Source: Thermodesulfobacteriota bacterium
Lineage (GTDB): Bacteria; Desulfobacterota; QYQD01
DNA length: 64,000 nucleotides
Reading direction: 5' to 3'
NCBI GenBank assembly: GCA_031082315.1
Contig: JAVHLC010000001.1
Span: 221,224 to 285,223, forward strand
Positions 9,665-36,761 of the stretch are shown one piece after another. Both the position numbers and the translations under genes were made by a program. The notes beneath the pieces were generated by a model, which ran no database searches, was not told the DNA's origin, and saw only the letters and a program-made list of their open reading frames with translations. Position 1 is the stretch's first letter. Every line of letters begins with the position of its first letter.

Positions 9665-9669
9665 AATTT

Positions 9670-15213: not shown

Positions 15214-15286
15214 CGTCGCCCTTTTGTGTCAATGGTCTGCGCCTTTACGCGACAGTCAAACCTGTTGTCCGCACATCTCATTCCGC

Positions 15287-18298: not shown

Positions 18299-18324
18299 AT
18301 CCCGCCTATAACCTTCGTAAAATT

Positions 18325-19050: not shown

Positions 19051-19081
19051 CTCTCCTTATCCTTTTACAGAATTCCTGATT

Positions 19082-19855: not shown

Positions 19856-19881
19856 AAGTTATCGCAGTATTTTGTATTCTA

Positions 19882-20790: not shown

Positions 20791-20794
20791 TTAT

Positions 20795-22456
20795 CTATTT
20801 AATCAGCAAACATGCAAGCTTGTAGTTTTCAAATGAGTGTAGTTCCATCCACCCGGAATTCACTTCAATACACGCCACAGGATGGCCCAGGTCAATAATC
20901 TCCTGCAGCAGGTCCGCCAGGCCTGCCCTCTCAAATACAGGGGCCTCATGGAAAGGTTTTCCCGCATATTTTTTAGCAGAGACATCGTAAATTCCCCTGA
21001 ATATTTTGGCTCCCTTTTTTGAAAGCACCAGCAGACCGGGAAATTCAAAATGTGCCTGATCCCTGTCAATCTTCATGCCTATTTGCTTCACCCTTTTTAC
21101 GGAGGCTTCGTGTAATTTACGTTTAGCCTTTACCGGTGCGCTATCGGTGATTACAAGATCCAGAAGCTTGTCTTGTGCATAATCCTTGGAGTCGTAGCCG
21201 GAATCCGCAAGAATTGTAATATCCTCCGGGCTTTTTAAAAGGAGTTCCAGTATCACGTTCTCAAAGTAGATGTCGCCGTAGGAAATTACCGCTTTTGAGT
21301 CCATGTGTTTTCCTGCCTGCATGACGGAATGAAGAATGCCCGTATTTTTATAGTCTGTGTTCTCAAGAAGCCTTACGCCATCCACATCTATTAGTTCTCT
21401 TTTGTAACCGGTTACCACAAATATCTCGGAGATTTCTGATTTGTGCAGTGTTTCAGCCTGCCTTTGTAAAAGCGGCTTGCCATTTATGTCGAGCATGGAG
21501 ATCGGTATTTCGGAAGCAATCTTGTTCATGGAATGTTCTTCCAGATGATCTCCCGCCGCCGCTATAACCGCAATTGTCTTTTCCCTGTCACCATGGAGAA
21601 ACTGTTTTTCATCCTCCTTCATTTTCGGCATGCCTTGAAGCTCGAATATGTACTTCATTGTAGTAATCTTTCCCTCAACGCTCTTTGTAGAACCCGTTCT
21701 CAGAATCTCGCCATATATGGACTCGATTGCCTTCACGGAGGCCCTTATGCCATGGTTTGCATAGACCACGACACTTATCCCGGAATCTGCAAGCTCTTCG
21801 GCGCTTACTTCATAATAGGATGTCGGAACAACTACCAGCGGCAACCGATTTCCCCAGCGGCGTGCGAATTCTAATACCTCATCCGGCGTTTTTTTCTTGG
21901 AATGTATCAATATTGCATCCGCGCCTGCTTCATGGTATGCCTTTGCCCTCATGAGCGCCTCGTCCATTCCGTAGCCTGCTATTAATGCCTCCACCCTGGC
22001 AACTACCATAAAGTCCGGGTCTGTCTGCGCACTCTTGGCAGCCATTATTTTTCCAACAAATTCCGCAACAGACGCGAGTTCCTGCTTTCCTGGGATAAAA
22101 CTGTTTGTTTTCGGAAATTTCTTATCCTCTATACATATTGCAGCGATACCTGCCGCCTCATATTTCTTAACCATATAGATAACATTGTTGGAATTTCCAT
22201 ATCCCGTATCACAGTCCGCCATAACAGGTATGGCAACTGCATCATTTATCTCGCAGGTCCTCTCCAGGTATTGACTCATTGTCAATATGTTTGCATCCGG
22301 CACACAATATGAGGTAGAAATTTCCAGTCCCGATGCCCATATCCCATCAAAGCCCTGGTTTTCACCGAGCTTGGCGGTCAATCCATCATGCGCCCCGATA
22401 AGGCGGACAATTCTTTTTTGTAATATCAGATCGCGTAAAAGTTTTGTTTTTTTCAT
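20795..22456 (-). CDS. phosphoenolpyruvate mutase (PepM) fused to a C-terminal nucleotidyltransferase domain
   Basis: 553 aa. The N-terminal ~290 aa match PEP mutase / isocitrate-lyase superfamily hallmarks (LIGAHDGLTAKLGENQGFDGIWASGLEISTS...ICIEDKKFPKTNS). The C-terminal ~250 aa are NTP-transferase-like (IAVIAAAGDHLEE...). Confidence 0.75.
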   Translation of the reverse strand: MKKTKLLRDLILQKRIVRLIGAHDGLTAKLGENQGFDGIWASGLEISTSYCVPDANILTMSQYLERTCEINDAVAIPVMADCDTGYGNSNNVIYMVKKYEAAGIAAICIEDKKFPKTNSFIPGKQELASVAEFVGKIMAAKSAQTDPDFMVVARVEALIAGYGMDEALMRAKAYHEAGADAILIHSKKKTPDEVLEFARRWGNRLPLVVVPTSYYEVSAEELADSGISVVVYANHGIRASVKAIESIYGEILRTGSTKSVEGKITTMKYIFELQGMPKMKEDEKQFLHGDREKTIAVIAAAGDHLEEHSMNKIASEIPISMLDINGKPLLQRQAETLHKSEISEIFVVTGYKRELIDVDGVRLLENTDYKNTGILHSVMQAGKHMDSKAVISYGDIYFENVILELLLKSPEDITILADSGYDSKDYAQDKLLDLVITDSAPVKAKRKLHEASVKRVKQIGMKIDRDQAHFEFPGLLVLSKKGAKIFRGIYDVSAKKYAGKPFHEAPVFERAGLADLLQEIIDLGHPVACIEVNSGWMELHSFENYKLACLLIK

Positions 22457-22576: not shown

Positions 22577-23911
22577 TTATAATTGCAAGCTCTCCTTGAT
22601 CCTGAACTTCTTACTTACGTCAGAGAAAAATCTTTTGTAATGCAGATAATCAGACCCATCAAGTAACACCAGTTTTTTAAGATTTATATCAGATTCTTTC
22701 GCAAAGATTAAAGCCAAAATAAGTGTAGAAGCGGTGTATGTTATTGTTGAAGATATGGCCGCCCCCCGGATCCCCAAACGGGGAATCAGTAGCAGGTTAA
22801 GAGCAACATTCAGGACAACACTTGATGCGTAAATGTAATTGATCATCCCTACCCTGGCCTTGCCAATAAAATAGTGGTTCAATGATATGCCTGCCCCCAT
22901 TGCCACGATCCCGGGTAAAAGAATCTTAAGCGAAGAAAGCAAGGGCAGAAAATCCTTCCCGTAGAAAATTTCCACGGCGACTGGAGCCAAAAAGTAGACA
23001 AACAATCCTACCACCGCCATAAGCCAAAGTGTATTACGAAAAGCTGTAGCTGTTAGGCCTTTCCCATATTTGTCTTCTCCTGAGGCGACCCTTGGCAGGA
23101 CCAGGATATCAGTTGCATTCAGTAACCATATCTTCTGACCAAAACCTGCTGCCAGACTGTAAAAGGCAACCTGAGGCGGAGTTAAAAAATAAGCAATTAT
23201 CCACAAGTCTATTCTGTAGTGAAGGGAGCTGATAACATTTCTGAGATATACTTTACACCCATAGCTCAGAAGAGAGCGGAAATGAACAACCTTTGATGAT
23301 ACAGAGGGAAATCTTCCCGTTGTAAGCCTGAATTTCCATAATGTGTATAAGGCTGCAAATATATTTATTAAAGAGTGCCCTAAAATGACCGCTCCTATGT
23401 CCAGAGAAGTGGTCAAGAATAAGATAATTCCTGTAATGCCCGGAAGAACACCGTTAATAAACCTTATTCTGTTTATTGTATGAATATCTTCTTTTGCTAC
23501 AAAAATATAGGTAAAGTAATTAATTATGAAACGCGGGGGGAGGGTCACAAGTATGGCAAGAAAATACCAGGTGGCCACCCCATGCTCTTTTATAAAAGTG
23601 GTTATAAAAAGGTCACTATACGCATAAAATAGCAGTGTCGGGATGCTTCCGATTATAAATGATGCAATCAATAAGACAGCGGCGGCATCCCTTATATCCA
23701 TCTCCTTCTTTGATATCTTATAGACCGAGGCTACCCCCATGCCTAAGCGTCCGAACGTCTCAAAGAATTGCGGAATGAGCATAATAATGGCTATGATTCC
23801 GAGCTTGGTAGGCCCCAAAAGCCTTGCAAGCATGATATTTGCCAGCATCCCTATCAGAAGTACAAATATCCTGTTAGAAACGATGGAAACGTATTTATTT
23901 GCGGAAGTCAT
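22577..23911 (-). CDS. oligosaccharide flippase (Wzx / MOP superfamily polysaccharide biosynthesis protein)
   Basis: 444 aa, about 12 predicted TM helices, with a typical Wzx N-terminus. Confidence 0.7.
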   Translation of the reverse strand: MTSANKYVSIVSNRIFVLLIGMLANIMLARLLGPTKLGIIAIIMLIPQFFETFGRLGMGVASVYKISKKEMDIRDAAAVLLIASFIIGSIPTLLFYAYSDLFITTFIKEHGVATWYFLAILVTLPPRFIINYFTYIFVAKEDIHTINRIRFINGVLPGITGIILFLTTSLDIGAVILGHSLINIFAALYTLWKFRLTTGRFPSVSSKVVHFRSLLSYGCKVYLRNVISSLHYRIDLWIIAYFLTPPQVAFYSLAAGFGQKIWLLNATDILVLPRVASGEDKYGKGLTATAFRNTLWLMAVVGLFVYFLAPVAVEIFYGKDFLPLLSSLKILLPGIVAMGAGISLNHYFIGKARVGMINYIYASSVVLNVALNLLLIPRLGIRGAAISSTITYTASTLILALIFAKESDINLKKLVLLDGSDYLHYKRFFSDVSKKFRIKESLQL

Positions 23912-24016
23912 CAGTTTTTAGATATCTTGCGAAGCGGCTCTATAGAGCCAGGCCTGATACGCCGGGGGCAATCGCCAATGGCAAAGTACCTTAATGTCCC
24001 TTGCCGGAGGCCGGGA

Positions 24017-24772
24017 TTACCCTGCTGTCCTTTCCTTATATTTCTTTTGTATATATCCGGCGTCAAAATCAATTTCCCCTTTTTCCAGAAGATATTCTGC
24101 AAATCTGAAATCGACAGGATGGTCTATATTAATCTGGAAATCTTCATCCATTATGAAAGGGAGGCACTTTTCGCCATACAGATCCCCTGTTTTAAACAGG
24201 ACCTCTTTTCTTACAGCATAGACCTGACCGTTCCGCCAATATACCTCCGGCAAGTCCTGTCTCCGCGTAAAATCCTTAACATTCAGGTATGGCCTTAAAA
24301 ACCCGTCCTCAATCTTCCTTACCCAATGGGGATTTACATAATGAGGGGCTTTCATCACCGAGACAACGGAATCAACGCCCTTTTCAAGAAGAAGCTCTAT
24401 GCATGCATCTATTGTCTTATACGTCCTGAACGGCGTTGTCGGTTGCAGTAGTACCACTACATCCGTTTTAAAACCGCTACATTTTTCGATCGCCTCAACC
24501 GCATGAATAAGACATGGCGGCGATGCAGCACTGTCGGATGCGAGTTCGGAAGGCCGCAGGATTATTTCACATTCCAGACTTGATGACAATTCAAGTATTT
24601 CCCTGTCTTCTGAAGAGAGTATCAGCCTTGTTAATCTGCGCGAACGTTGCGCCTCTATAATCGTATATGCTACAAGGGGTACGTTCGCAAGCGGTTTCAT
24701 ATTCTTTCTTTTCACGCCCTTAGACCCGCCCCTCGCAAGGATAACACCCAAAACGTTCATTTCTTTTCCCAT
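24017..24772 (-). CDS. CMP-nonulosonic acid synthetase (acylneuraminate cytidylyltransferase family; NeuA/PseF/LegF-like)
   Basis: 251 aa. ILARGGSKGVKRKNMKPLANVPLV signature of CMP-Kdo/CMP-NeuAc synthetase family. Confidence 0.7.
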   Translation of the reverse strand: MGKEMNVLGVILARGGSKGVKRKNMKPLANVPLVAYTIIEAQRSRRLTRLILSSEDREILELSSSLECEIILRPSELASDSAASPPCLIHAVEAIEKCSGFKTDVVVLLQPTTPFRTYKTIDACIELLLEKGVDSVVSVMKAPHYVNPHWVRKIEDGFLRPYLNVKDFTRRQDLPEVYWRNGQVYAVRKEVLFKTGDLYGEKCLPFIMDEDFQINIDHPVDFRFAEYLLEKGEIDFDAGYIQKKYKERTAG

Positions 24773-25947
24773 GCCCTGCAGATCAAAAAAATCCCTTCCT
24801 TGACCGGTTCATCGTAAATAGGATGGAAAGAAATATTCTTAAAGTATGTCTTCAAAAAATACTCCACGCTTTTAGCAGTGTAATGAGTGACGTGGTTGAA
24901 CCAGTCCCAGCGGTGTCTTCCCTCTTCCACATACTTTTTTGCCGGATACCGGTTTGGAACCGAAAAGACCACGCTTCCATTTCTTTTAAGAAATGCCAGG
25001 ATCTTTTCTATAAGATTCTTATGTATGGAGTGGGGAATGTGTTCAAAGGTTTCGGTCATGTAGACGGCATCAAAGGATTCGGGTTCGAATTCGCATTCTT
25101 CTATCGGTGAGTTAATAAAACTGATGTTCTTTTGTATTTCGGCGGGCAGGTAATTTCTTAATTGTTCAGCTTCCTCGAATAGGTGTGGTACAATTTCCAC
25201 ACCAGTTATTATCTTTCCGTTTTCCGCCAGCTTTGTGGTAATAATGCCGCAACTGCATCCCACATCAAGACACCGCTTGCCCGTCGGTATCGAAAGCAGG
25301 GTTTCTATTCTTTGAGGAACATCTCTCGACGACCGGGATAGAATGGGATCGTGTGTTACATCCTTGCCCCAGTAGTCGCCGAGGTTGTCCTTGTACTTTA
25401 TTGCCTGCTTCATTTGTTCTTCGGTTGAATAATAGAAAGATTCCTTGTCTAAGTACTCATAATATTTGGGTAAATCATCCGCAGAAGAAAGACGCACCGC
25501 CTCTTTCTCGGTTATCATAAAGGGGAAGCAGTCATGCTTGGCAAGCTCGAAATCATCAAACCCCTCAGTTATAATCAGTGCAGGGACCGCAGCTCCCGAT
25601 GGCGCGTGCGTCACCAGATATGTAGCCTCTGTTTCTCTGAACCGCCGCAACCCTTCAGGAATCGTTTTCAGATTGAAAAAGGGGTAGCTCAAATCAACTG
25701 CCGCTTTTAATATGCCTCTGGAATCGCGTAAAAAGCCAAGATTGCCATCGGGGCTCTCCCACTCTACGCCGCGGTCAATGACATTGACAACCGCAGCCGG
25801 AAGCGCATCGCGTATTTCTCTGATACGCTTTTCATGGAAACCGTCAATGCCGAGAATCTCATCAACAGTCCTTTGATGGTAAATATCAACTATAATATTT
25901 TGCATGGATACCTTCAAATTCCTTCGCCCAGCAGGCCACGGTAACAC
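24757..25947 (-). CDS. two-domain protein with C-terminal class I SAM methyltransferase domain
   Basis: 396 aa. Motif I CLDVGCSCGIITTKLAENG in the C-terminal half. The N-terminal half is unassigned. Confidence 0.45.
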   Translation of the reverse strand: MLPWPAGRRNLKVSMQNIIVDIYHQRTVDEILGIDGFHEKRIREIRDALPAAVVNVIDRGVEWESPDGNLGFLRDSRGILKAAVDLSYPFFNLKTIPEGLRRFRETEATYLVTHAPSGAAVPALIITEGFDDFELAKHDCFPFMITEKEAVRLSSADDLPKYYEYLDKESFYYSTEEQMKQAIKYKDNLGDYWGKDVTHDPILSRSSRDVPQRIETLLSIPTGKRCLDVGCSCGIITTKLAENGKIITGVEIVPHLFEEAEQLRNYLPAEIQKNISFINSPIEECEFEPESFDAVYMTETFEHIPHSIHKNLIEKILAFLKRNGSVVFSVPNRYPAKKYVEEGRHRWDWFNHVTHYTAKSVEYFLKTYFKNISFHPIYDEPVKEGIFLICRAWEKK

Positions 25948-26753
25948 TCGTATGTATTCAGCTCTTCTTTCGAGAAAGATTCCGGGTCTTCCCCTTTGAT
26001 TTTTTCAAAAAACACCGCGTAATCCGCTAGTTCCCTCAGTTCCACCGGATCACATGCAAGGTGATGGCTTCTGCCCTTCATTTTCTTGTCCAGTGTAAAA
26101 TGTTTTTCGATCATTACCGCTCCCATCGCAATGGCAGCCTTGGGCACATCGACCCCAAGAGTATGGTCGCTGAATCCCACATTGGGTGTTAATGTCCTAA
26201 GCCAATTCATCCGCATAAGCCTGACTTTTTCAGGCGGCGTGGGGTAAAGGGTGGTGCAGTGCAATAGAGTGAATCTGCATCCGTTTTTGGTCTTGAGCAT
26301 GTCTACCGTTTTTTTGATCTCGTCCCGCGGAACACTGCCGGTTGAGAGGATCAGGTGACTGAAATTATCCGCAAGTTTGCCGACCATCTGCCTGCTTACC
26401 ATGTCATAACTGGCCACTTTTATATTTTTCAGGCCGAGGGACCGCAGAAAATCTATCCGCCCGATGTCGAAGCATGTCGTATAAAATGTTATTCCAGCCT
26501 TCCTGCACTCTTCCATCAATTCAAAATGCGCTTCGTCTGAAAGGTTGACACTCATGAACCTTTCCTTATCCGGATGGTTATCCCGCACATTTGAACCCAG
26601 ATACGACTGAAACTTTATCACGTCCGCACCTGCCTCTTTTGCAGCATGGATCATTTCTCTGGCAATACCGATATCCCCATTATGGTTCGAAGCCGCTTCA
26701 GCAACTATCACCGCTTTCATTTTTCCTCCAGCATATATCCGCTTCTTTTGCAA
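25914..26753 (-). CDS. N-acetylneuraminate / pseudaminate synthase family protein (NeuB/PseI-like, TIM-barrel part only)
   Basis: 279 aa. N-terminal VIVAEAASNHNGDIGIAREMIHAAKEAGADVIKFQ typical of NeuB. It seems to lack the C-terminal SAF domain. Confidence 0.65.
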   Translation of the reverse strand: MQKKRIYAGGKMKAVIVAEAASNHNGDIGIAREMIHAAKEAGADVIKFQSYLGSNVRDNHPDKERFMSVNLSDEAHFELMEECRKAGITFYTTCFDIGRIDFLRSLGLKNIKVASYDMVSRQMVGKLADNFSHLILSTGSVPRDEIKKTVDMLKTKNGCRFTLLHCTTLYPTPPEKVRLMRMNWLRTLTPNVGFSDHTLGVDVPKAAIAMGAVMIEKHFTLDKKMKGRSHHLACDPVELRELADYAVFFEKIKGEDPESFSKEELNTYECYRGLLGEGI

Positions 26754-27520
26754 CCGCCTAAAATAGACCTTATGTTGTGGAAGGCCGTCATCGCATGCTC
26801 GGTCATATTTTTCTCATCGAAAAGGAAATCCTGTGCATTCGCGGAACATAACTTGACCTGACGCCCAAGGTTTCGACCGTTATGGTCTTTTTCACCGTCC
26901 TCAAACCGGAATTCAGACAGGTCCACATCCGTATATACGGGGATAACAGCGTTAATCTCAAACCGTGAGCCTATACTCACCCATCCTTCAAACCGGCTCT
27001 CTTTTTCTTCCCAGCATATTGTGAGGGTGTCCAGGCACTCTCTGCCGAATTCCTCCTTAAATTTTTCCGGGTTAAAGAGCTGCCAACCCGGCACGATCTT
27101 ATCACATTTGTAAACCACTACTTCTTCCCAGAGTTCGCGAACCATGAGGTCGGGTTCCAGTATCTCTTCCGTCGAGTCAAAGCGCCCGGTCGGGATGGTA
27201 AATTTACCAGGGTTTGTCGGCGCACTACCGGAACGCTTTATTAGAGGGAACTGACCGTATCGGTCGAACAAAACCCCCCCGCCGCCTGCAAAAAAAACAG
27301 GTATAAACTCCTTGCAGCCCTGTTTTGAATCCTTATTGAATACGGTCCATCTTTCCAGATCATTGAGATACGATGATATCTCCCAATATTTACCAAACTC
27401 CGCGATAGCTAAACGGTAGTGTCTGTCCGTTATCTTCTCCAGATACCCCTTTGCAGCCCACCATTCACCTATAAACAGTCCTCCCAAGGCGTCCACAGGA
27501 GAAGACTCCTCCCCCAACAA
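26717..27520 (-). CDS. hypothetical protein
   Basis: 267 aa ORF, co-oriented and overlapping its neighbours by about 35 nt. No recognisable motif. Confidence 0.3.
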   Translation of the reverse strand: MLGEESSPVDALGGLFIGEWWAAKGYLEKITDRHYRLAIAEFGKYWEISSYLNDLERWTVFNKDSKQGCKEFIPVFFAGGGGVLFDRYGQFPLIKRSGSAPTNPGKFTIPTGRFDSTEEILEPDLMVRELWEEVVVYKCDKIVPGWQLFNPEKFKEEFGRECLDTLTICWEEKESRFEGWVSIGSRFEINAVIPVYTDVDLSEFRFEDGEKDHNGRNLGRQVKLCSANAQDFLFDEKNMTEHAMTAFHNIRSILGGCKRSGYMLEEK

Positions 27521-27659
27521 TATTTTCCTCTTTAATTCCTGTTTTTTGTATATAGCAACTTAACTAATTGCGCATAGTTTTCTCAGAGCGCTGTTGCCGG
27601 AAGATCATTCCTCGAATTTGGTTTCGATGGCCGTAGCGATGCTATTCAGCGATGGAAAA

Positions 27660-27993
27660 TATTCGCTATGAGTGCAGCGCCTATGTATCAACTTCCAGAC
27701 CCGTTCGATAGGATTGAAGGCCGGACTATAGGGCGACCCGGGCGGTCGGCGCGGATTCAGGGCAGGTTACACCTTGTGCGGCCAGAAGGACGGCATGGAG
27801 CCGATGGTCGTAGCGCGTCTCTTGAGATCGATGAATTTCGTCTTGAAGCGCAAGTATCATAGTTTCCGGATCTGAGATGGCCGGTGTTTTCATGAAAACA
27901 TAGTAATACAAACCAGCATGATACGTAATTACTTATGACATTATTAGTGAACAGCTTGGGGAAACGGAAATGAATTTTATCCACATAGTTCAC
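27660..27993 (-). pseudogene. possible transposase N-terminal (HTH_23-like) remnant in a GC-rich island
   Basis: Two overlapping short minus-strand ORFs. One reads ...ETRYDHRLHAVLLAAQGVTCPESAPTARVAL, resembling the RxxRaxaLLaxxGxS...A HTH of IS630-like transposases. No DDE domain follows. Local GC content is far above the flanks. Confidence 0.25.
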
Positions 27994-29083
27994 GTATCTT
28001 TTTTCCTATGTACCGTATCTTCTCCGGTTCAAGCATTGTATAAAAGGGCAATAGAATACCGGATCGGGCGAAAAGCTCCGAATTCGGCATTCCACCGCCT
28101 CTGGGAAAATTCCTGTAAGGAGGCATTTTGTGCAACGGGTAGAAAAGCGGACGCGTATCAATATTTCTCTTTTTCAGTTCCACTATCAGCTCATCACGGC
28201 TAATATCCAGTATATTTTCATCTATAAATACTGGGAAAAGCCAGTCGGCAATCTCGCCGGGGCTTTCATACCGGAATTCCAATCCGGATATTCCCTGAAG
28301 TTCTTCATAGTATACAAAGCGCAGCGATTTTCTTTTTTCAAGGATCTCATCTAATCTTTCAAGCTGGGCCACTCCAATGGCAGCGCTCAAATTTGTCAGA
28401 CGGTAATTATATCCTATCATGTCGTGCCAATACGTTTTTAGAGGGTTCATCCCATGATCCCGCAAAATCCTCATCTTTTCATAAAGTCGCTGGTCATCGG
28501 TCACGCATATTCCACCTTCGCCCATCGTTATTATTTTGTTCCCGTAAAAGCTGAAACATCCGATCTCGCCTATTGATCCTACCCTCTTGCCGTTTATTGA
28601 GGCCCCATGCGCCTCCGCGCAATCTTCAACTACAAAACATGAATACTCTCCGGCTATTTCGAGGATATCACCCATTAAACATGGATACCCCAGGAGGTGT
28701 ACGGGCATGATAGCCTTCGTTCTGTGAGAAATGACTTTTCTCACTTCCTTCGGATCAATGTTCCAATGGGATTCCATCGAATCCACGAAGACCGGCGTGG
28801 CTCCGGCGTGAATTACGGCGTTTGCACTGGCGGCAAACGTGAGGTTCGGAACAACAACCTCATCACCCTCTCCTATTCCAAGGGCGACAAGCGCCAGGTG
28901 CAGAGCCGTCGTACCGCTTGAGACCGCTACTGCGTATTTTGCGCCTAAAAACCCCGCAAACCCTTTTTCAAACAGCTCAATATATTTTCCCTTTGAGGAT
29001 ATCCAGCCGCTTTGAAGAGCATCCATGAGGTAACGCTCTTCATTCCCCTCAAAGGACGGCTCCATAACCGGAATCATTTTCAT
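27977..29083 (-). CDS. DegT/DnrJ/EryC1/StrS-family PLP-dependent sugar aminotransferase
   Basis: 368 aa. DALQSGWISSKGKYIELFEKGFAGFLGAKYAVAVSSGTTALHLAL and the PLP-lysine region FSFYGNKIITMGEGG. Confidence 0.8.
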   Translation of the reverse strand: MKMIPVMEPSFEGNEERYLMDALQSGWISSKGKYIELFEKGFAGFLGAKYAVAVSSGTTALHLALVALGIGEGDEVVVPNLTFAASANAVIHAGATPVFVDSMESHWNIDPKEVRKVISHRTKAIMPVHLLGYPCLMGDILEIAGEYSCFVVEDCAEAHGASINGKRVGSIGEIGCFSFYGNKIITMGEGGICVTDDQRLYEKMRILRDHGMNPLKTYWHDMIGYNYRLTNLSAAIGVAQLERLDEILEKRKSLRFVYYEELQGISGLEFRYESPGEIADWLFPVFIDENILDISRDELIVELKKRNIDTRPLFYPLHKMPPYRNFPRGGGMPNSELFARSGILLPFYTMLEPEKIRYIGKKIRELCG

Positions 29084-29159
29084 GGCAATATTCCTTGATT
29101 ACTTATGAATTCTTCATACCCATTAATGCTGCGGATATCCTCCGTCTACAATAACAACG

Positions 29160-29828
29160 TTAAAGAACGGTCAAAATCTCCCTTAATTGAGACAAATCAC
29201 TGATTACATAATCTGCAAACTCTCTATCCAAAGCGCTGTCCGGGTTGCCGTTCACTATACCCACACAAATAACGCCCAGCCTGCCCACAAGTCTCATATC
29301 CGCCTTCTCGTCACCTACGAACATGATCTGATCCGTCTTGAGTCCATATTTATTCTTAATATAGCTCATATGGGCTTTCCCCTTTATGAAATCACCGGAA
29401 GCGCCGAGCATTTCCTTAAAATATTTTTTTATATCAAGAAATACAGCTAACTCACATATCTCTTCCTTTACCGCCGAGCTCGAAACGAATAATTCAAAAC
29501 CCCTTGCCGCAAGCCACTGCAGAAGTTCCCTATTCTTTTCATCGAACACCCTGTTTTCCTTATAAGAAGTGGTATTCCTCAAAGTAAATTCTGAACTGAG
29601 CCTGTTAAACTCCAGAAGACTCAACTCTCTGCCCATATTTTCTATTGCAATGAGATTGAAAAGTTCCTTTCTTGAAACACCTGAATATTTCCTGTAGCTC
29701 AATGAGACATTTTCTGCATCCGCATTGTATATTTCTTCGAACATTGATGCGGCATTATTTATCTTCAACGGCATAGTATTGACAATCGTCCCGTCCCAGT
29801 CAAATACTACAGCCTTAATTCTTGCCAC
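29160..29828 (-). CDS. HAD-superfamily phosphatase
   Basis: 222 aa. Motif I VVFDWDGTIVNT and a C-terminal DE-motif region. Confidence 0.6.
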   Translation of the reverse strand: MARIKAVVFDWDGTIVNTMPLKINNAASMFEEIYNADAENVSLSYRKYSGVSRKELFNLIAIENMGRELSLLEFNRLSSEFTLRNTTSYKENRVFDEKNRELLQWLAARGFELFVSSSAVKEEICELAVFLDIKKYFKEMLGASGDFIKGKAHMSYIKNKYGLKTDQIMFVGDEKADMRLVGRLGVICVGIVNGNPDSALDREFADYVISDLSQLREILTVL

Positions 29829-31539
29829 TTAATCCCTCGTAAACAATACCTTCTACTCTTTCTATTTCCGCACAGGGAAATAAATGCCAGCAATCAAAAA
29901 GCAAGGCCGGTTTACTCATGAGATTAGTGAGGCCGAGAATATCCATGTCCAGATATGAACGGTGGTTGTTCATTATTAAAACGCAATCAGCTCCTTTAAA
30001 ACCTTCCCTCAGACTGGCTCCCACAACTCCATTACTTTCTATAACCTCTTTACCGACTACCGGATCATAGCCGGTTAATCGCCATGTTGTCTTGTCCTTA
30101 ATCAGATTTACAAGGTCTATAGCTGTTGAACCCCTTGTATCGGAGGTTTCAGGTTCCCCTTTGAAGGCAAATCCGATAATAAACACCTTTACGTCGTTAG
30201 CGTTATTTTTATACCTTTTCATGAAGGACTCCACCTTCCGAACAATGAACATAGGCATATATTCATTAATTTTTCTACTCATCAATGAGATCTCAGCCTT
30301 ATGTTCGACCTTTTCTGCCGAGTGTGCATACAAGTAAGGGTCTTTCTTTAAACATACTCCCCCAACTCCCGGGCTTGGTACTGGAATAGGATTCCTCGGA
30401 TAACCTTCGTTAGCCGCTTTAACTATATTCACCGCGTCAAGACCCCAGCGGTCACATATGAGGGCTAATTCATTAGCAAAGCCAAAAGAGAGATCTCTGA
30501 ATGAATTATTAATCAGTTTTACCATCTCGGCAGCTTCCAATGAGGGCACCCTTACAACCGTATTATTGAAGTAAGAAAAAAAGTTTACCGACTCATCCAG
30601 ACTTCTCTTATTCAGTCCCCCCATAACCTGAGGAATAGACCTCAGCTCTTCCAATGCGTTACCCTCTACTGTTCTTTCAGGGGCAAATGAAAGGTAAAAA
30701 TCTTCATCGGCCTTTAATCCCGATGCTTCCTCAAGAATGGGAAGGACTAAATTACGGGTTGTTCCGACAGGAACGGTAGATCTCAATATCACAGTATCTC
30801 TTTTCTTCAACACCTTACCCACTTTCCTCGTCGCTTTTCTAAGCAAATCCAGATTCGGCTTCCGATTCTTACCTATTGGTGTGCTGACACTTAAAATATA
30901 AATATCCGCCTTCCCTTCCGTCAGGTCAGAGTCGGCTCTTAAATTCCCTCTAGCCACATGAAATTTCAGGAGCGACGGGAGGCCTTTTTCATAGAAGTGA
31001 GGTCTCCCTGTATTTATATGGTTAACGACCTCTTTATTTATATCATAACCGATTACCTTAAATCCGGCATCGGCCAAAACAATGGACAAGGTAAGACCCA
31101 CAAAACCCAAACCGATAACACAAACCGTCTTATTTTTTACATCAGAGCCTTTCCACAACTCAAAAAAGTTTAAAACATCATCTACCCTTCCGTCCTTATC
31201 CACTATAATTACCTGATCAACCTTTACATCTCTGATCCTTCCGCTCGTTTCCACTTTCTTCGTCACCAATTCAATCATTTTCGTTTCGGAAAGATCTTTT
31301 GGCACTGTTATCGGGTCGTTAATCATAATATTTTCAACAGCAGAATCGATATCAACATCGTTTACCAGTGCCCGTCTTATATCCCCATCGGTTACTATAC
31401 CCAAAAGTTTCTTGTTATTGTTAACCACTAGCGCAATGCCGGTTGGGGCTCCTCTTGATGCAGCTCCGGTAATTATCTTCATAGTCTCACGAATCGTATA
31501 TTTAGATGAAATCATTATGGATTCTATCTTTTTATTCAT
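29815..31539 (-). CDS. CBS-pair domain fused to UDP-glucose/GDP-mannose dehydrogenase-family nucleotide-sugar dehydrogenase
   Basis: 574 aa. N-terminal tandem CBS domains, then the NAD-binding motif KTVCVIGLGFVGLTLSIVLADAG and the catalytic region of TviB/WecC-like dehydrogenases. Confidence 0.7.
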   Translation of the reverse strand: MNKKIESIMISSKYTIRETMKIITGAASRGAPTGIALVVNNNKKLLGIVTDGDIRRALVNDVDIDSAVENIMINDPITVPKDLSETKMIELVTKKVETSGRIRDVKVDQVIIVDKDGRVDDVLNFFELWKGSDVKNKTVCVIGLGFVGLTLSIVLADAGFKVIGYDINKEVVNHINTGRPHFYEKGLPSLLKFHVARGNLRADSDLTEGKADIYILSVSTPIGKNRKPNLDLLRKATRKVGKVLKKRDTVILRSTVPVGTTRNLVLPILEEASGLKADEDFYLSFAPERTVEGNALEELRSIPQVMGGLNKRSLDESVNFFSYFNNTVVRVPSLEAAEMVKLINNSFRDLSFGFANELALICDRWGLDAVNIVKAANEGYPRNPIPVPSPGVGGVCLKKDPYLYAHSAEKVEHKAEISLMSRKINEYMPMFIVRKVESFMKRYKNNANDVKVFIIGFAFKGEPETSDTRGSTAIDLVNLIKDKTTWRLTGYDPVVGKEVIESNGVVGASLREGFKGADCVLIMNNHRSYLDMDILGLTNLMSKPALLFDCWHLFPCAEIERVEGIVYEGLSGKN

Positions 31540-31634: not shown

Positions 31635-33833
31635 TTATCTCCTTTGGATGATTTCTTCCACCTGGAGAGCTATTTCGGTCGCCTGGATCTGTTCCCATAA
31701 CTCAATAGGCCAGTGTCCACCACTTATAAGGGCGTCACAAAAAACATGCATCTCGTCAAATAAGCCCTTGTCCTGATTCTTTTTTTTAAACCCTGAAAGC
31801 TTTGAGCCATGAATATCAACAGATTTATAATCGTTAAGTTCAATTATCATTCCGTCCACATATATCTCCATTCGTTCCTTAGGCAGGTCCCGTGAGCCCA
31901 TGGCCGTATATACCAGGTTAGCAACGGACCCATCTTCGAAAGTGATAGTAGCTATAAAATTATCATTTTCAAGGTAGTAGCCGTTGGCTTTAGAGATTGC
32001 AGCAGCCTGAACAGAAGTGAATTTAGAACCTACAATGTAGGTAAATAGGTCATATATGTGACACGCCTCGCCGATGTTCCGCCCCCCACCCTCAGGACCA
32101 TGTACCCAACTATCGGATGGAATATATCCGGCGTTCATGCGGTAATTTATGATTAATGGATTGGTCCTCTTTTCAACTACTTCTTTTATTCTCCTTATAA
32201 AAGGAGCGAATCTCCTGTTAAAGCCTGCCATAAGGATTTGGCCGCTATTCTCTTTAGCGTTAAAGTAAGCGCATATCTCTTCCATCTCCTTACGCTTTAC
32301 CGCCAGGGGTTTCTCTACAAAGACATGTTTGCCTGCCCTGAGGGCAAGCAGCGCGTACTCGGCATGAAGGTTATGCCGAGTACATATGATAACAGCATCG
32401 GTTTCCCTGTCATCAAGTATCTCATTAATATCCGTTGTCGCATAAGCCGCATCATAGCGCTTCGACACCGTGAGAACTTTGTGCCCGCTACGGCTCATAA
32501 CCCCTCTCAAAATGCATCTATCCGAAAGCCTTTTGATATTCGGGAGATGATTCGATAGGGCAAAATTCCCTGCACCTATTAAAGATATGCCTATTTTTGA
32601 CTTCTTAACAACCTCAGCTGTTGAATTTTTAATGACCAGAGATTCCGCGCCGTTCTTCTTCTCCGGATATTCCAAAAGCACCATCATGGCTCCGGAGCTT
32701 AATTGGGCATAAGCCTGAGGGGCTTCATCTATTATTTTACGGTCGCTTATCAAAGATGCCACGTCTATACTCTTGTTCGCCAGAAGATCAAGGTATGCCG
32801 ACATATTGCGGTTTTCGGTCCATCGAACGTAACCGATCGGATAATCCATCCCATTTTCCTCATATGCCGTATCGTATCTTCCTGGCCCGTAGGATGTTGA
32901 GATAAAAAAATCCAGTTCCTTACTGTAAAAATCGCTTCGATTTAAATTTAATCCGATATCCCCGATCAAAACCACTCTTCCTTTTTTTCTGCACATATTA
33001 AAAGCTGTAGATATAACCTCATCCGAGGGAGTAGATGCACAAATCACCACGCCGTCTGCGCCATGGCCCATTGTCAATCTGTAGGTATGCTGAACGGGAT
33101 CCAAAAGTTTCGAATTGAACGCCCACCGCATTCCCAACGACGCAGCAATGTTCACTCTATCATCATCAGTGTCAATACCAAGCGCTTTACACCCATTCGC
33201 TTTTAGCAGTTGTCCTACAATCTGCCCGATGGCTCCAAGCCCTATTACCACAAAAGTTTCCCCTAATGTGGGCTGCAATCTGCGTATACCCTGAAGCGCA
33301 ATGGCCCCAATCGTTACTGTAGATGCAAGGTCAGCGGCCAGATTGTCCGGCACCTTAACCACAAGGTTCTTGGGGACGCAAACCAACTCGGCATGATTGG
33401 CAAACTGGCCACCAACCGCAACCAAGCCCCCTTCCGGGAATCCCTTTGCGCCTTTTGAGCCCACCACTCTACCCGCTGCAGAGTACCCCATCGGGAATTC
33501 AGCCTCGAGGGTACTACGAGCAATACTAAGCGAATTAGAAAGCCCGCGATCTTTAATGCTATGAATCACTCTGTGGGGTTGTTCGACCACGCGTTTCCAA
33601 AGCGGTTTCGCAGAATTCTTGATTCCAGCCAACTCGGTGCCGCTGGATATGCACGAGTACAGGAGCCGCACCAGCACACGTCCATCAGACAACATTGCGG
33701 CCGGCACATCTTTAACCAAAATCTGTCCTTTTTTGAGTAATACCTGTTTCATTTGTCCACAGTTTTGCCCGCCACACCGAAAATCATTATTAAAGTGCCG
33801 GGAGTCTGTCGGAGTTAGATTTCGGCCCGGCAA
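31635..33833 (-). CDS. bifunctional oxidoreductase: MDR zinc-type alcohol-dehydrogenase-like domain fused to Gfo/Idh/MocA domain
   Basis: 732 aa. N-terminal GroES-like/MDR domain (VIGLGAIGQIVGQLL), C-terminal Gfo/Idh/MocA (IGISLIGAGNFALSNHLPNIKR...EKP). Confidence 0.65.
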   Translation of the reverse strand: MPGRNLTPTDSRHFNNDFRCGGQNCGQMKQVLLKKGQILVKDVPAAMLSDGRVLVRLLYSCISSGTELAGIKNSAKPLWKRVVEQPHRVIHSIKDRGLSNSLSIARSTLEAEFPMGYSAAGRVVGSKGAKGFPEGGLVAVGGQFANHAELVCVPKNLVVKVPDNLAADLASTVTIGAIALQGIRRLQPTLGETFVVIGLGAIGQIVGQLLKANGCKALGIDTDDDRVNIAASLGMRWAFNSKLLDPVQHTYRLTMGHGADGVVICASTPSDEVISTAFNMCRKKGRVVLIGDIGLNLNRSDFYSKELDFFISTSYGPGRYDTAYEENGMDYPIGYVRWTENRNMSAYLDLLANKSIDVASLISDRKIIDEAPQAYAQLSSGAMMVLLEYPEKKNGAESLVIKNSTAEVVKKSKIGISLIGAGNFALSNHLPNIKRLSDRCILRGVMSRSGHKVLTVSKRYDAAYATTDINEILDDRETDAVIICTRHNLHAEYALLALRAGKHVFVEKPLAVKRKEMEEICAYFNAKENSGQILMAGFNRRFAPFIRRIKEVVEKRTNPLIINYRMNAGYIPSDSWVHGPEGGGRNIGEACHIYDLFTYIVGSKFTSVQAAAISKANGYYLENDNFIATITFEDGSVANLVYTAMGSRDLPKERMEIYVDGMIIELNDYKSVDIHGSKLSGFKKKNQDKGLFDEMHVFCDALISGGHWPIELWEQIQATEIALQVEEIIQRR

Positions 33834-34888: not shown

Positions 34889-34977
34889 TTGAAGCTCCCC
34901 GCAGTCCGCCTTGGGCGGACGGGGAATCTCCGTATGCAAGGTAAAATGCATCGTATTCGCTCGCTATGCATGTTCAA
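34889..34977 (-). repeat. conserved box plus hairpin intra-operon element, copy 2 (longer hairpin with a 34-nt insertion)
   Basis: Same flanks as 2275..2326 (TTGAAGCTCCCCGCAG ... CGCTCGCTATGCATGTTCAA). Hairpin CCCCGCAGTCCGCC-TTG-GGCGGACGGGG. The box overlaps the last 4 codons of the uxs-like gene. Confidence 0.5.
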
Positions 34978-36641: not shown

Positions 36642-36761
36642 TATTCAAGAGATGCGTAATGGGTCATGAGTGATTAGCAAGAAAAGGACATAGCTCCGCT
36701 TTGTCGGTTACATACGTATTACCTGGTAACCGATTAAGGGGTGATTGATGGGTAGGTTAAA

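What the first reader, a model, noticed from the sequence alone, without database searches (positions are those of the whole stretch)
24017..29828. Nonulosonic-acid (sialic/pseudaminic/legionaminic-like) biosynthesis module
Five contiguous genes give the core of a CMP-nonulosonate pathway:
- A NeuB-family condensing synthase (25914..26753).
- A CMP-NeuAc-synthetase-family cytidylyltransferase (24017..24772).
- A DegT-family sugar aminotransferase (27977..29083).
- A HAD phosphatase (29160..29828).
- A methyltransferase-domain protein (24757..25947).

The NeuB homologue appears to lack the C-terminal SAF/antifreeze-like domain (279 aa). The methyltransferase-domain protein and the unassigned 267-aa ORF suggest a modified, possibly N- or O-methylated, nonulosonate.
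Basis: partly seen in the sequence, partly recalled or inferred. Interest (0 to 1): 0.5.

Follow-up and report, generated by a model that had tools for sequence, protein, structure and literature searches.

The report
Unusual CMP-ulosonic acid sugar gene cassette
The genes are real and probably make a CMP-activated sialic-acid-like sugar, but through an undescribed route in which a sugar dehydrogenase, a novel Nudix hydrolase and a phosphatase replace the usual first enzyme, so the product may be a new kind of acidic sugar.

Summary
All ORFs and domain calls in the finding are correct. NeuB (PF03102, 9e-61) lacks SAF, and CTP_transf_3, DegT, HAD and a methyltransferase are present. It is not a sialic, pseudaminic or legionaminic acid cluster. 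Every NCBIfam equivalog score is far below cut-off, and no NeuC/LegG/PseG-type epimerase/hydrolase, PseB-type (Polysacc_synt_2) dehydratase or sugar N-acetyltransferase domain was found in the 64 kb.

The "unassigned 267-aa ORF" is a rare, divergent Nudix hydrolase (88 representatives among 1.84 billion proteins). In nine independent loci from several phyla it lies between a ~570-aa NDP-sugar dehydrogenase (with a CBS domain in most; window 29815-31539, outside the finding) and a SAF-less NeuB followed by CTP_transf_3, with a HAD phosphatase in the cassette. In three representative clusters the dehydrogenase and Nudix are fused. In two loci the cassette sits beside a second, longer NeuB.

Most likely route: NDP-sugar to NDP-uronate, then Nudix and HAD release the free sugar acid, NeuB condenses it with PEP, and the product is methylated and CMP-activated. 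The nine-carbon dicarboxylic product is inferred only. DegT and the methyltransferase fusion are clade-specific. I found no description of this cassette. The locus also carries aminoethylphosphonate and MeOPN-like phosphoramidate modules.

The parts
29815..31539 (-). CBS pair + NDP-sugar 6-dehydrogenase (574 aa).
   Evidence: Pfam CBS, UDPG_MGDP_dh_N, central and C domains. NCBIfam NDP-sugar dehydrogenase subfamily 354 bits, above the 189.8 cut-off. Best solved relatives are UDP-ManNAcA dehydrogenase 4R16, CalS8 and Cap5O. The catalytic Cys motif GGVCLKKD and the Rossmann motif GLGFVG are present here and in all 9 cassette dehydrogenases checked. It is adjacent to the Nudix-like gene in 8 other loci and fused to it in P0136, P0160 and P0206 (P0215 is a member of the P0160 cluster).
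29160..29828 (-). HAD_2 phosphatase (222 aa). Core member, with a 14-nt overlap with the dehydrogenase stop.
   Evidence: Pfam HAD_2 3.4e-16. Motif I DWDGT is conserved in all 8 cassette HADs checked. It is present in every locus whose contig reaches far enough. Distant PDB relatives include the phosphorylated-carbohydrate phosphatase TM_1254.
27977..29083 (-). DegT-family sugar aminotransferase (368 aa). Clade-specific accessory.
   Evidence: Pfam 2.8e-120. Best solved relatives are GDP-perosamine synthases 3BN1/3DR4 at 331 bits, against 149 for WbpE and 143 for PseC. Orthologues (51-54% identity) occur only next to the cassettes of L007 and L009.
27521..27976 (-). Gap containing a decayed IS630-type transposase (N- and C-terminal fragments only).
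   Evidence: ORF 27726-27911 reads '...ETRYDHRLHAVLLAAQG...'. A further frame reads '...NPIERVWKLIHRRCTH...' in the sequence. Assignment to IS630 rests on my own knowledge of those motifs and was not tested with a tool.
26717..27520 (-). Core member.
25914..26720 (-). SAF-less NeuB-family PEP-condensing synthase (268 aa from the ATG at 26720). Core member.
   Evidence: PF03102 9.1e-61. 100% identical to P0001 from a Thermodesulfobacteriota MAG. Closest solved structure is 6NCS, a 290-aa chain also lacking SAF. Motifs AEA..NH, KFQ, KVASYD, STG, YPT, GFSDHT and EKHFT are intact. The sugar-site motif GxDH is replaced by G[RNK]SH in this clade.
24757..25947 (-). Two-part protein: an unassigned N-terminal domain (~190 aa) plus a class-I SAM methyltransferase. 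Specific to the close clade.
   Evidence: Methyltransferase domains occupy residues 209-361 only. Both halves are conserved in L001, L007, L008, L009 and L012: N-domain 38-43%, C-domain 64-72% identity. The N-domain has no Pfam or PDB homologue. Plain methyltransferases occupy similar positions in the distant cassettes L013 and L016.
24017..24772 (-). CTP_transf_3 cytidylyltransferase (251 aa). Core member, with a 16-nt overlap with the methyltransferase gene.
   Evidence: Pfam 6.7e-18. P-loop-like motif ARGGSKGVKRKN is conserved across cassettes. 67-69% identical in the close clade and ~40% in the distant cassettes.
31635..33833 (-). ADH_zinc_N + GFO_IDH_MocA fusion oxidoreductase (732 aa). 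Probable accessory tailoring enzyme.
   Evidence: Pfam. A 720-aa orthologue (38% identity) lies in L007 beside the same cassette.

Best explanation
The region is one copy of a recurrent gene cassette, undescribed as far as I could search, for a CMP-activated ulosonic acid. The cassette bypasses the usual NeuC/LegG/PseG step.

Proposed route:
1. The CBS-fused NDP-sugar 6-dehydrogenase oxidises an NDP-hexose or NDP-N-acetylhexosamine to the NDP-uronic acid. Its CBS pair may be the feedback site.
2. In this clade only, the ADH/GFO oxidoreductase and the DegT aminotransferase may add an amino group at the nucleotide-sugar stage.
3. The Nudix hydrolase cleaves the nucleotide off, giving NMP plus sugar-1-phosphate.
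4. The HAD phosphatase removes the 1-phosphate and frees the reducing sugar acid.
5. The SAF-less NeuB condenses it with PEP to give a 3-deoxy-2-ulosonic acid that still carries the distal carboxylate, i.e. a nine-carbon 'ulosaric' diacid.
6. The methyltransferase fusion methylates it.
7. CTP_transf_3 makes the CMP-sugar for a glycosyltransferase of the surrounding Wzx-type locus.

Shown: the families, the intact catalytic motifs, the conserved gene order and the dehydrogenase-Nudix fusions.

Inferred: the order of reactions, the substrate, the uronate nature of the NeuB substrate and the site of methylation.

I put about 0.55 on the general claim, a distinct NeuC-independent CMP-ulosonate pathway fed by dehydrogenase, Nudix and HAD. 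I put about 0.3 on the specific dicarboxylic product.
For: **Conserved order.** The order dehydrogenase, Nudix, NeuB (no SAF), CTP_transf_3 holds in nine independent loci: the window, L001/2/12, L008, L009, L013, L014/15, L016, L017 and L018. It holds even where the Nudix proteins are only ~25% identical.

**HAD.** It is present in every locus that extends far enough.

**Fusions.** Dehydrogenase-Nudix fusions of 829-854 aa occur in three representative clusters, followed directly by NeuB in L013 and L016.

**Active sites intact.**
- Dehydrogenase: GG-x-C-x-x-KD (the catalytic Cys needed for oxidation through to the acid).
- Nudix: R-E-x-x-E-E.
- HAD: DxDGT.
- NeuB motifs.
- CTP motif.

**Translational coupling in the window.** Overlaps of -14, -4 (ATGA) and -16 nt.

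**Missing canonical enzymes.** No Epimerase_2 or N-acetyltransferase domain was found in the 64 kb.

**Coexistence with a second NeuB.** The cassette sits beside a second, longer NeuB in L014 (338 aa, with NeuC-type, DegT and acetyltransferase genes) and in L017 (346 aa, NeuB+SAF), so it is not a substitute for that pathway.

**Structure.** The closest structural relatives of the Nudix model include NDP-sugar and ADP-ribose pyrophosphatases.

**Altered sugar site.** The sugar-contacting GxDH motif of NeuB is changed to G[RNK]SH in this clade.
Against: - No biochemical data exist for any member, and all members come from uncultured MAGs.
- No nine-carbon ulosaric acid was found in the searchable literature. 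The 'ulosaric' search (78 papers, 25 listed) returned plant/algal cell-wall and pectin work, where the term refers to Dha.
- The Nudix substrate class cannot be read from the model. TM-scores are low and many Nudix subtypes score alike.
- L007 has the cassette with a ManC-like nucleotidyltransferase in the Nudix position, so Nudix is not strictly indispensable or may be encoded elsewhere.
- The HAD could instead be a 9-phosphate phosphatase, as in the animal and Bacteroides routes.
- The dehydrogenase could serve a separate uronic-acid residue of the same glycan, although the fusions argue against that.
- An IS remnant separates DegT from the Nudix gene in this window, so expression of the downstream half is not assured.
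Confidence: 0.55

Rival explanations
1. A divergent but ordinary legionaminic/pseudaminic/sialic acid pathway. DegT acts as LegC/PseC, NeuB as LegI/PseI/NeuB, CTP_transf_3 as LegF/PseF/NeuA, and the missing steps are encoded elsewhere in the genome.
For: The best NCBIfam hits are to these families: LegC-family 346 bits, NeuB_NnaB 228 and PseF 119.5. DegT resembles GDP-sugar C4 aminotransferases. A 312-aa SDR at 34964-35902 has a weak LegB-like hit of 122.5 bits. More distant SAF-less NeuBs do sit with NeuC-type Epimerase_2 genes.
Against: All scores are far below the curated equivalog cut-offs. No Epimerase_2, PseG, PseH/LegH-type acetyltransferase or Polysacc_synt_2 dehydratase was found in the 64 kb. 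DegT is absent from most cassettes. The conserved partners are a 6-dehydrogenase and a Nudix hydrolase, which have no role in those pathways. The cassette sits beside a second, longer NeuB in L014 (with NeuC-type, DegT and acetyltransferase genes) and in L017 (NeuB+SAF).
Confidence: 0.12
2. A 9-phosphate route like that of animals or Bacteroides Kdn. NeuB condenses PEP with a sugar 6-phosphate, the HAD enzyme removes the 9-phosphate, and the dehydrogenase and Nudix proteins act on a different component of the glycan or on the finished nucleotide sugar.
For: A HAD_2 phosphatase is a constant member of the cassette. By motif alignment the NeuB has Asp at the position where PMC8208679 reports the E134D change typical of archaeal and eukaryotic synthases. 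The animal pathway uses a phosphatase after the synthase (PMC8208679).
Against: It leaves the dehydrogenase-Nudix fusions and their fixed position directly upstream of NeuB unexplained. No sugar kinase or phosphosugar-forming enzyme was seen in the cassette. A Nudix product, sugar-1-phosphate, supplies a natural substrate for the HAD enzyme.
Confidence: 0.15
3. Two unrelated pathways lie side by side. The dehydrogenase, ADH/GFO and DegT make a 2,3-diamino-uronic acid (WbpA/B/E-type) for the repeat unit. NeuB and CTP_transf_3 make a simple ulosonic acid such as Kdn from a free sugar, and Nudix and HAD are housekeeping-like helpers.
For: The window has the trio of NDP-HexNAc dehydrogenase-like, GFO_IDH_MocA and DegT genes in a row. 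L007 has the same three genes plus an Asn-synthase-like amidotransferase.
Against: DegT is much closer to perosamine synthase/LegC than to WbpE, 331 against 149 bits. No WbpD-type acetyltransferase or WbpI-type epimerase is present. GFO and DegT are missing from most cassettes, while dehydrogenase, Nudix and NeuB remain linked and are sometimes fused.
Confidence: 0.13

Closest known systems
Bacterial NeuC-NeuB-NeuA pathway for CMP-Neu5Ac, and the related Leg and Pse pathways
   Same: PEP-dependent NeuB-family aldol-type condensation with intact metal and PEP-binding motifs, followed by CTP_transf_3 activation to a CMP-sugar. The genes are embedded in a surface-polysaccharide locus, with optional DegT-type amination and methylation.
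   Different: No hydrolysing 2-epimerase or nucleotidase (Epimerase_2), no PseB-type 4,6-dehydratase and no N-acetyltransferase. NeuB lacks the SAF domain and has an altered sugar-site motif. All equivalog models fail. The sugar appears to be supplied by a 6-dehydrogenase, a Nudix hydrolase and a HAD phosphatase.
SAF-less NeuB proteins (PDB 6NCS; 'environmental' NeuB branches described in PMC8208679)
   Same: Same short architecture of ~265-330 aa, a TIM-barrel part only. 6NCS is the best solved relative at 134 bits.
   Different: As far as I could find, those proteins have no assigned substrate or pathway. The window's clade is marked by the G[RNK]SH motif, the tail Y-x-GLLGEGI and the dehydrogenase/Nudix neighbourhood. 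Other short NeuBs (L003, L005, L010) sit with NeuC-type genes instead.
Nudix NDP-sugar hydrolases (Bdellovibrio NudF 5C7Q, human NUDT22, E. coli GDP-mannose mannosyl hydrolase 1RYA/2I8T)
   Same: Nudix fold and conserved R-E-x-x-E-E catalytic helix. These are precedents for Nudix enzymes that release a sugar or a sugar-1-phosphate from a nucleotide sugar.
   Different: Only 11-19% identity in the structural alignments. There is a 2-residue insertion in the Nudix box, extra conserved GGG and D208/E210 motifs, and ~70 N-terminal residues of unknown structure. No known Nudix enzyme is dedicated to feeding a NeuB-type synthase (my knowledge).
Animal NANS/NANP and Bacteroides Kdn-9-P synthase/phosphatase route
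   Same: A NeuB-family synthase working together with a HAD-superfamily phosphatase.
   Different: Those routes start from a sugar 6-phosphate and need neither a dehydrogenase nor a Nudix enzyme. Their synthases carry the SAF domain.
WbpA/WbpB/WbpE route to UDP-2,3-diacetamido-uronic acids
   Same: The window has an NDP-HexNAc-type 6-dehydrogenase, a GFO_IDH_MocA oxidoreductase and a DegT aminotransferase side by side.
   Different: DegT is closer to C4 aminotransferases of GDP-sugars. There is no WbpD or WbpI. The dehydrogenase carries a CBS pair and is genetically tied to Nudix and NeuB.

Membership tests
NeuB family (PF03102) PEP-condensing synthases | Pfam NeuB domain above the gathering score | tested here: met
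   205.8 bits against a 22.1 cut-off, E 9.1e-61.
NeuB family (PF03102) PEP-condensing synthases | Catalytic, metal and PEP-binding motifs (AEA..NH, KFQ, K-x-AS-x-D/E, STG, YP, SDH, E-x-H) | tested here: met
   All are present in the alignment and the PDB alignments. The third acidic residue is Asp, not Glu.
N-acetylneuraminate synthase NeuB (TIGR03569 equivalog) | Score at or above the curated cut-off | tested here: not met
   228.2 bits against 399.65.
N-acetylneuraminate synthase NeuB (TIGR03569 equivalog) | C-terminal SAF/antifreeze-like domain supplying the Arg that binds the N-acetyl group | tested here: not met
   No SAF hit. The protein ends at residue 268.
Canonical Neu5Ac pathway (NeuC-NeuB-NeuA) | Hydrolysing UDP-GlcNAc 2-epimerase (Epimerase_2) in the cluster | tested here: not met
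   No Epimerase_2 hit in any ORF of 150 aa or more in the window. A copy elsewhere in the genome cannot be excluded.
Pseudaminic acid pathway (PseB, C, H, G, I, F) | PseI, PseF and PseC equivalog scores; PseB, PseG and PseH present | tested here: not met
   PseI 176.1 < 340.25, PseF 119.5 < 205.7 and PseC 287.6 < 423.5. No significant Polysacc_synt_2 (PseB-type) match, only a sub-threshold stretchless 22.6-bit hit in the 312-aa SDR. No PseG or acetyltransferase domains.
Legionaminic acid pathway (LegB, C, H, G, I, F) | LegC-family and LegB models above cut-off; LegG (Epimerase_2) and LegH present | tested here: not met
   LegC-family 345.8 < 420. LegB 122.5 < 475 for the 312-aa SDR at 34964-35902. 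No Epimerase_2 or acetyltransferase.
   Only NeuB-family hits in Pfam, NCBIfam and PDB.
CMP-ulosonate cytidylyltransferases (CTP_transf_3) | Pfam domain and N-terminal G-G-S-K-G-x-x-x-K-N nucleotide-binding motif | tested here: met
   65.7 bits against 22.6. Motif ARGGSKGVKRKN. Specificity is not resolved, because all equivalogs are below cut-off.
Nudix hydrolase superfamily | Nudix box G-x5-E-x7-R-E-U-x-E-E-x-G-U | tested here: inconclusive
   G112-x5-E118-E119...R128-E129-x-x-E132-E133 is conserved family-wide. It has a 2-residue insertion, and Val replaces the final Gly. Pfam is only just above cut-off, 22.1 against 21.1.
Nudix hydrolase superfamily | Nudix alpha/beta/alpha fold | tested here: met
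NDP-sugar 6-dehydrogenases (UDPG_MGDP_dh) | Three-domain architecture, subfamily model above cut-off, catalytic Cys | tested here: met
   TIGR03026 354.1 > 189.8. GGVCLKKD motif. Substrate-specific equivalogs are all below cut-off.
WbpA/B/E-type diamino-uronic acid pathway | WbpE-like C3 aminotransferase, WbpD acetyltransferase and WbpI 2-epimerase | tested here: not met
   DegT scores 149 bits to WbpE against 331 to perosamine synthase. No acetyltransferase or Epimerase_2 in the window.
Proposed dehydrogenase-Nudix-HAD-NeuB-CTP cassette (defined here) | Co-linear ~570-aa NDP-sugar dehydrogenase, ~260-aa Nudix-family member, SAF-less NeuB and CTP_transf_3, with HAD_2 nearby | tested here: met
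   The window has all five. The same set occurs in 8 other independent loci.
Proposed dehydrogenase-Nudix-HAD-NeuB-CTP cassette (defined here) | Enzymatic activities and identity of the product | not testable with these tools
   Needs biochemistry or mass spectrometry.

The most novel reading that the evidence does not exclude
The cassette makes a class of bacterial sugar not yet described: a CMP-activated nine-carbon 3-deoxy-2-ulosaric acid, carrying a carboxylate at both ends. It would be built by condensing PEP with a free hexuronic or N-acetylhexosaminuronic acid released by a dedicated Nudix/HAD pair. In this organism the sugar would be further aminated and methylated, possibly as a methyl ester. 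It would be displayed on a surface polymer that also carries aminoethylphosphonate and phosphoramidate groups.
Probability: 0.3. Interest if true: 0.8.

Novelty: new variant of a known kind. Interest (0 to 1): 0.62.

Why it matters
Nonulosonic acids are key surface determinants. Their biosynthesis is thought to begin with a small set of NeuC/LegG/PseG-type enzymes, or with sugar-6-phosphates. A conserved alternative entry (oxidise, cut off the nucleotide with a dedicated Nudix enzyme, dephosphorylate, then condense) would have four consequences:

1. It would add a new biosynthetic logic and probably a new sugar to the ulosonic acid family.
2. It would assign a function to a rare, unannotated Nudix family and to part of the large, unexplained group of SAF-less NeuB proteins.
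3. It would explain why homology-based 'sialic acid' annotations in environmental genomes are unreliable.
4. It would give a defined five-gene set that can be expressed and assayed directly.

The surrounding locus combines C-P (phosphonate) and N-P (phosphoramidate) modification modules, so it is also an attractive target for glycan structure work.

Tried and rejected
1. **Word-indexed search with the 267-aa ORF.** It found only the protein itself. The exhaustive HMMER search was needed.
3. **Profile searches of the N-domain against PDB and Pfam.** Only noise, with E of 0.04 or worse.
4. **Structure prediction with alignment A2.** The single-sequence AF2 model of the methyltransferase fusion was unusable at pLDDT 33, so the N-domain remains unassigned.
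5. **The search for related loci with the broad alignment A4.** With A5 it returned one locus each from genomes and metagenomes. The genome hit L011 (Rickettsiales MAG) is a weak partial match (HMM score 21.5) in a housekeeping context, so I did not count it as a family member.
6. **afdb50 fold library.** Unavailable.
7. **Promoter and terminator scan of 23800-29200.** Not above the shuffled expectation, so no conclusion on transcription across the IS remnant.
8. **Literature searches.** I searched for SAF-less NeuB function, for a NulO-phosphonate link, for 'ulosaric' acids and for Nudix with sialic acid synthase. They gave only the general statement that SAF-less NeuBs exist, and nothing on this cassette.
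9. **DegT as WbpE.** Considered and rejected on the scores.
10. **A decarboxylated 8-carbon product.** Considered. There is no conserved decarboxylase in the cassette, so it is not favoured, but it is not excluded.

Full report
**1. Observation**

The window carries one long minus-strand polysaccharide locus. It runs from a NusG paralogue and an HTH regulator (36027-37364) down to the left edge of the window. The rest of the window is housekeeping: RadA, DnaB, LptD, a Mur ligase, UvrD, PFOR, RecR, DnaX and MoaA.

All ORFs named in the finding are present, and their family assignments hold:

| Coordinates | Assignment | Score |
|---|---|---|
| 24017-24772 | CTP_transf_3 | 6.7e-18 |
| 24757-25947 | methyltransferase domains, residues 209-361 only | |
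| 25914-26753 | NeuB PF03102, no SAF | 9.1e-61 |
| 27977-29083 | DegT | 2.8e-120 |
| 29160-29828 | HAD_2 | 3.4e-16 |

The NeuB protein is 100% identical, from the ATG at 26720, to a 268-aa protein of a Thermodesulfobacteriota MAG.

**2. It is not a Neu/Leg/Pse cluster**

Every curated equivalog model fails by a wide margin:

| Model | Score (bits) | Cut-off |
|---|---|---|
| NeuB | 228 | 399.65 |
| PseI | 176 | 340 |
| PseF | 119.5 | 205.7 |
| PseC | 288 | 423.5 |
| LegC-family | 346 | 420 |
| LegB (nearby 312-aa SDR) | 122.5 | 475 |

No Epimerase_2 (NeuC/LegG/PseG type), PseB-type (Polysacc_synt_2) dehydratase or sugar N-acetyltransferase domain was detected anywhere in the 64 kb.

Lack of SAF is not peculiar to this gene. 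The search returned thousands of NeuB-family relatives, and all 120 listed are 247-293 aa, SAF-less in size. The best solved relative, 6NCS, is a 290-residue SAF-less chain. PMC8208679 reports that about 30% of NeuB-family sequences, mostly environmental, lack SAF.

**3. What travels with this NeuB**

Gene contexts of the closest homologues (64-69% identical NeuB) show the same block: a HAD_2 phosphatase, a ~575-aa CBS + NDP-sugar dehydrogenase, a ~245-aa unassigned protein, the short NeuB, a ~385-aa methyltransferase fusion and CTP_transf_3.

The window's dehydrogenase (29815-31539) lies just outside the reported interval and overlaps the HAD start by 14 nt. The Nudix-like stop and the NeuB start form an ATGA overlap. 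The methyltransferase and CTP genes overlap by 16 nt.

More distant short NeuBs (about 50% identity; Methanocella, Omnitrophota and others) sit instead with NeuC-type Epimerase_2 and CTP_transf_3 genes. So the short NeuB family as a whole does serve ulosonic acid pathways, and this clade has a different sugar supply.

**4. The 'unassigned 267-aa ORF' is a Nudix hydrolase of a rare family**

- Pfam gives only a borderline NUDIX hit.
- A profile of four orthologues matches Nudix proteins in the PDB as its best five hits (best E 2.7e-6; the others have E > 0.1). Two weak peroxiredoxin matches also appear.
- An exhaustive HMMER search of 1.84 billion representatives finds only 88 relatives, nearly all 250-300 aa.
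- In a 79-sequence alignment the residues G80, R96, G112, E119, P123, R128, E129, E132, E210 and R220 are invariant. G79, G81, N103, E133, N190 and D208 are nearly so. This is a Nudix box with a 2-residue insertion but a complete R-E-x-x-E-E catalytic helix.
- The AlphaFold model built on that alignment is confident over residues ~70-260.
- The members looked up all come from MAGs and are annotated as hypothetical, as NUDIX-domain proteins, or (the fusion) as a nucleotide sugar dehydrogenase.

**5. Dehydrogenase and Nudix belong together**

In three representative clusters, proteins of 829-854 aa are CBS-dehydrogenase-Nudix fusions. In L013 and L016 the fusion gene is followed directly by a SAF-less NeuB, with methyltransferase(s) and CTP_transf_3, and by a HAD gene in L016.

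Three further loci carry Nudix proteins only ~25% identical to the window's. They have dehydrogenase, Nudix, NeuB (319-330 aa), CTP_transf_3, 2-Hacid_dh and HAD in that order.

Counting the window, nine independent loci show the same core. A family HMM confirms the Nudix gene in each. In L014 and L017 the cassette lies beside a second, longer NeuB. In L017 that one carries the SAF domain. In L014 it is accompanied by NeuC-type, DegT and acetyltransferase genes. This shows the cassette is a separate pathway.

Catalytic motifs are conserved in all members checked: the dehydrogenase GG-x-C-x-x-KD, HAD DxDGT and the CTP nucleotide-binding motif.

One close locus, L007, has a ManC-like nucleotidyltransferase where the Nudix gene would be. 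This is an unexplained exception.

**6. Clade-specific parts**

- *Methyltransferase fusion.* Both halves are restricted to the close clade. Its N-terminal ~190 residues have no detectable homologue and could not be modelled.
- *DegT.* Orthologues accompany the cassette only in the window, L007 and L009. DegT is nearest to GDP-perosamine synthase and LegC-type C4 aminotransferases, not to WbpE or PseC.
- *ADH_zinc_N-GFO fusion.* The 732-aa protein recurs in L007.
- *NeuB sugar site.* In the NeuB of this clade the sugar-contacting GxDH motif reads G[RNK]SH, while all catalytic motifs are intact.
- *IS remnant.* A decayed IS630-type element occupies the 456-bp gap between DegT and the Nudix gene.

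**7. Mechanism proposed**

The simplest reading of the conserved set is as follows:

1. The dehydrogenase converts an NDP-hexose or NDP-HexNAc to the NDP-uronate. It retains the Cys needed for the second oxidation. Its closest relatives are UDP-ManNAc/HexNAc dehydrogenases.
2. The Nudix enzyme cleaves the diphosphate, giving NMP and sugar-1-phosphate.
3. The HAD phosphatase frees the reducing sugar. Together, steps 2 and 3 do what NeuC, LegG or PseG do in the known pathways, but without epimerisation.
4. NeuB condenses the aldehyde with PEP.
5. The product is methylated.
6. CTP_transf_3 forms the CMP-sugar.

If the substrate is indeed a uronate, the product is a nine-carbon 2-ulosaric diacid. 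I found no such sugar in the searchable literature. This last step is inference from gene content only.

Three alternatives are scored as rivals: a divergent ordinary Leg/Pse pathway, a 9-phosphate route using the HAD enzyme, and two independent pathways lying side by side.

**8. Comparison with the known, and novelty**

The chemistry of NeuB plus CTP_transf_3 is well known. SAF-less NeuBs are documented but not functionally assigned. Nudix NDP-sugar hydrolases are known as such.

The fixed association, and occasional fusion, of a dedicated Nudix family with an NDP-sugar dehydrogenase (CBS-bearing in most loci), a HAD phosphatase and a SAF-less NeuB is not described in the papers I could search. 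I therefore rate it a new variant of a known kind, with an appreciable chance that the product is a new sugar class.

**9. Context**

The same locus encodes three further modules:

- *A complete 2-aminoethylphosphonate module.* It has a PEP mutase-nucleotidyltransferase fusion (340 > 319.55), phosphonopyruvate decarboxylase (418 > 312.5) and AEP transaminase (447 > 360.8). It also has two methyltransferases, a CDP-alcohol phosphatidyltransferase-family protein, a LicC-like nucleotidyltransferase and a TagF-like transferase. L009 repeats the link between the cassette and the PEP mutase fusion.
- *A four-gene set resembling Campylobacter Cj1418-Cj1415.* Those genes make CDP-phosphoramidate 3'-phosphate (PMC11800397). 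The scores here are PRK05849 869 > 501, gamma-glutamyl-CDP-amidate hydrolase 102 < 250, a nucleotidyltransferase, and an APS-kinase-type kinase 196 > 127.
- *Other genes.* Sulfotransferase-like, sulfatase-superfamily, B12-radical-SAM, GT4 and heparinase II/III-like genes.

Noticed in passing
window 7660-12708 (minus strand): Four adjacent genes resemble the Campylobacter jejuni Cj1418-Cj1415 set, which makes the O-methyl-phosphoramidate donor CDP-phosphoramidate 3'-phosphate. They are a 1012-aa PPDK_N/PEP-utilizer kinase (PRK05849 869 bits > 501), a Peptidase_C26/GATase (gamma-glutamyl-CDP-amidate hydrolase model 102 bits, below the 250 cut-off), a nucleotidyltransferase and an APS-kinase-type kinase (196 > 127). 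A phosphoramidate module outside Campylobacter, in a Thermodesulfobacteriota MAG, deserves its own look.
   Followed up: partly
window 13780-22456 (minus strand): A complete 2-aminoethylphosphonate module lies directly downstream of the flippase gene. It has a PEP mutase fused to a nucleotidyltransferase, phosphonopyruvate decarboxylase and AEP transaminase, all above the NCBIfam equivalog cut-offs. It also has two methyltransferases (possibly N-methylation of AEP), a CDP-OH_P_transf protein, a LicC-like nucleotidyltransferase and a Glyphos_transf (TagF-like) protein. L009 also links the cassette to a 67%-identical PEP mutase fusion.
   Followed up: partly
window 27521-27976: A decayed IS630-type transposase (short N- and C-terminal fragments, internal part deleted) lies between DegT and the Nudix gene. 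It splits the cassette and may affect its transcription.
   Followed up: partly
window 12748-13776 and 5894-7564: A sulfotransferase-family protein and a sulfatase/alkaline-phosphatase-superfamily protein flank the phosphoramidate-donor genes. The donor is a 3'-phospho-nucleotide resembling PAPS, so the sulfotransferase-like protein could be the phosphoramidate transferase. This is pure speculation and was not tested.
   Followed up: no
window 36027-37364: A NusG paralogue (200 aa) and an HTH_24/MarR-like protein (204 aa) sit at the head of the ~37-kb polysaccharide locus. This suggests operon-specific antitermination, as with RfaH/UpxY-type factors.
   Followed up: no
L014 12442-13990; L017 10464-12012; L018 10424-11988: In the more distant cassettes a D-2-hydroxyacid dehydrogenase gene is always inserted between CTP_transf_3 and HAD. 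The distal end of a putative ulosaric acid is itself a 2-hydroxy acid, so this enzyme might tailor that end. This is unexplained.
   Followed up: no
L007 8927-9958: In an otherwise orthologous cassette (dehydrogenase 73%, HAD 58%, NeuB 67% identical) the Nudix position is occupied by a 343-aa ManC-like nucleotidyltransferase with a beta-helix. This hints at a GDP-linked precursor and is an exception to the Nudix rule.
   Followed up: partly
window 82-2247 and 4362-5939; L007, L018, L001, L008: Heparinase II/III-like proteins (59% identical between the window and L007), Asn-synthase-like amidotransferases and B12-binding radical-SAM enzymes recur around the cassette in several loci. This points to a shared, more extensive glycan type containing modified uronic acids.
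   Followed up: no
window 25333-25905 (query): The word-indexed protein search returned no hit at all for the methyltransferase N-domain, not even the protein itself. The neighbouring NeuB and Nudix proteins of the same MAG are in the database. This is either an index gap or this MAG's protein is missing from the collection.
   Followed up: no
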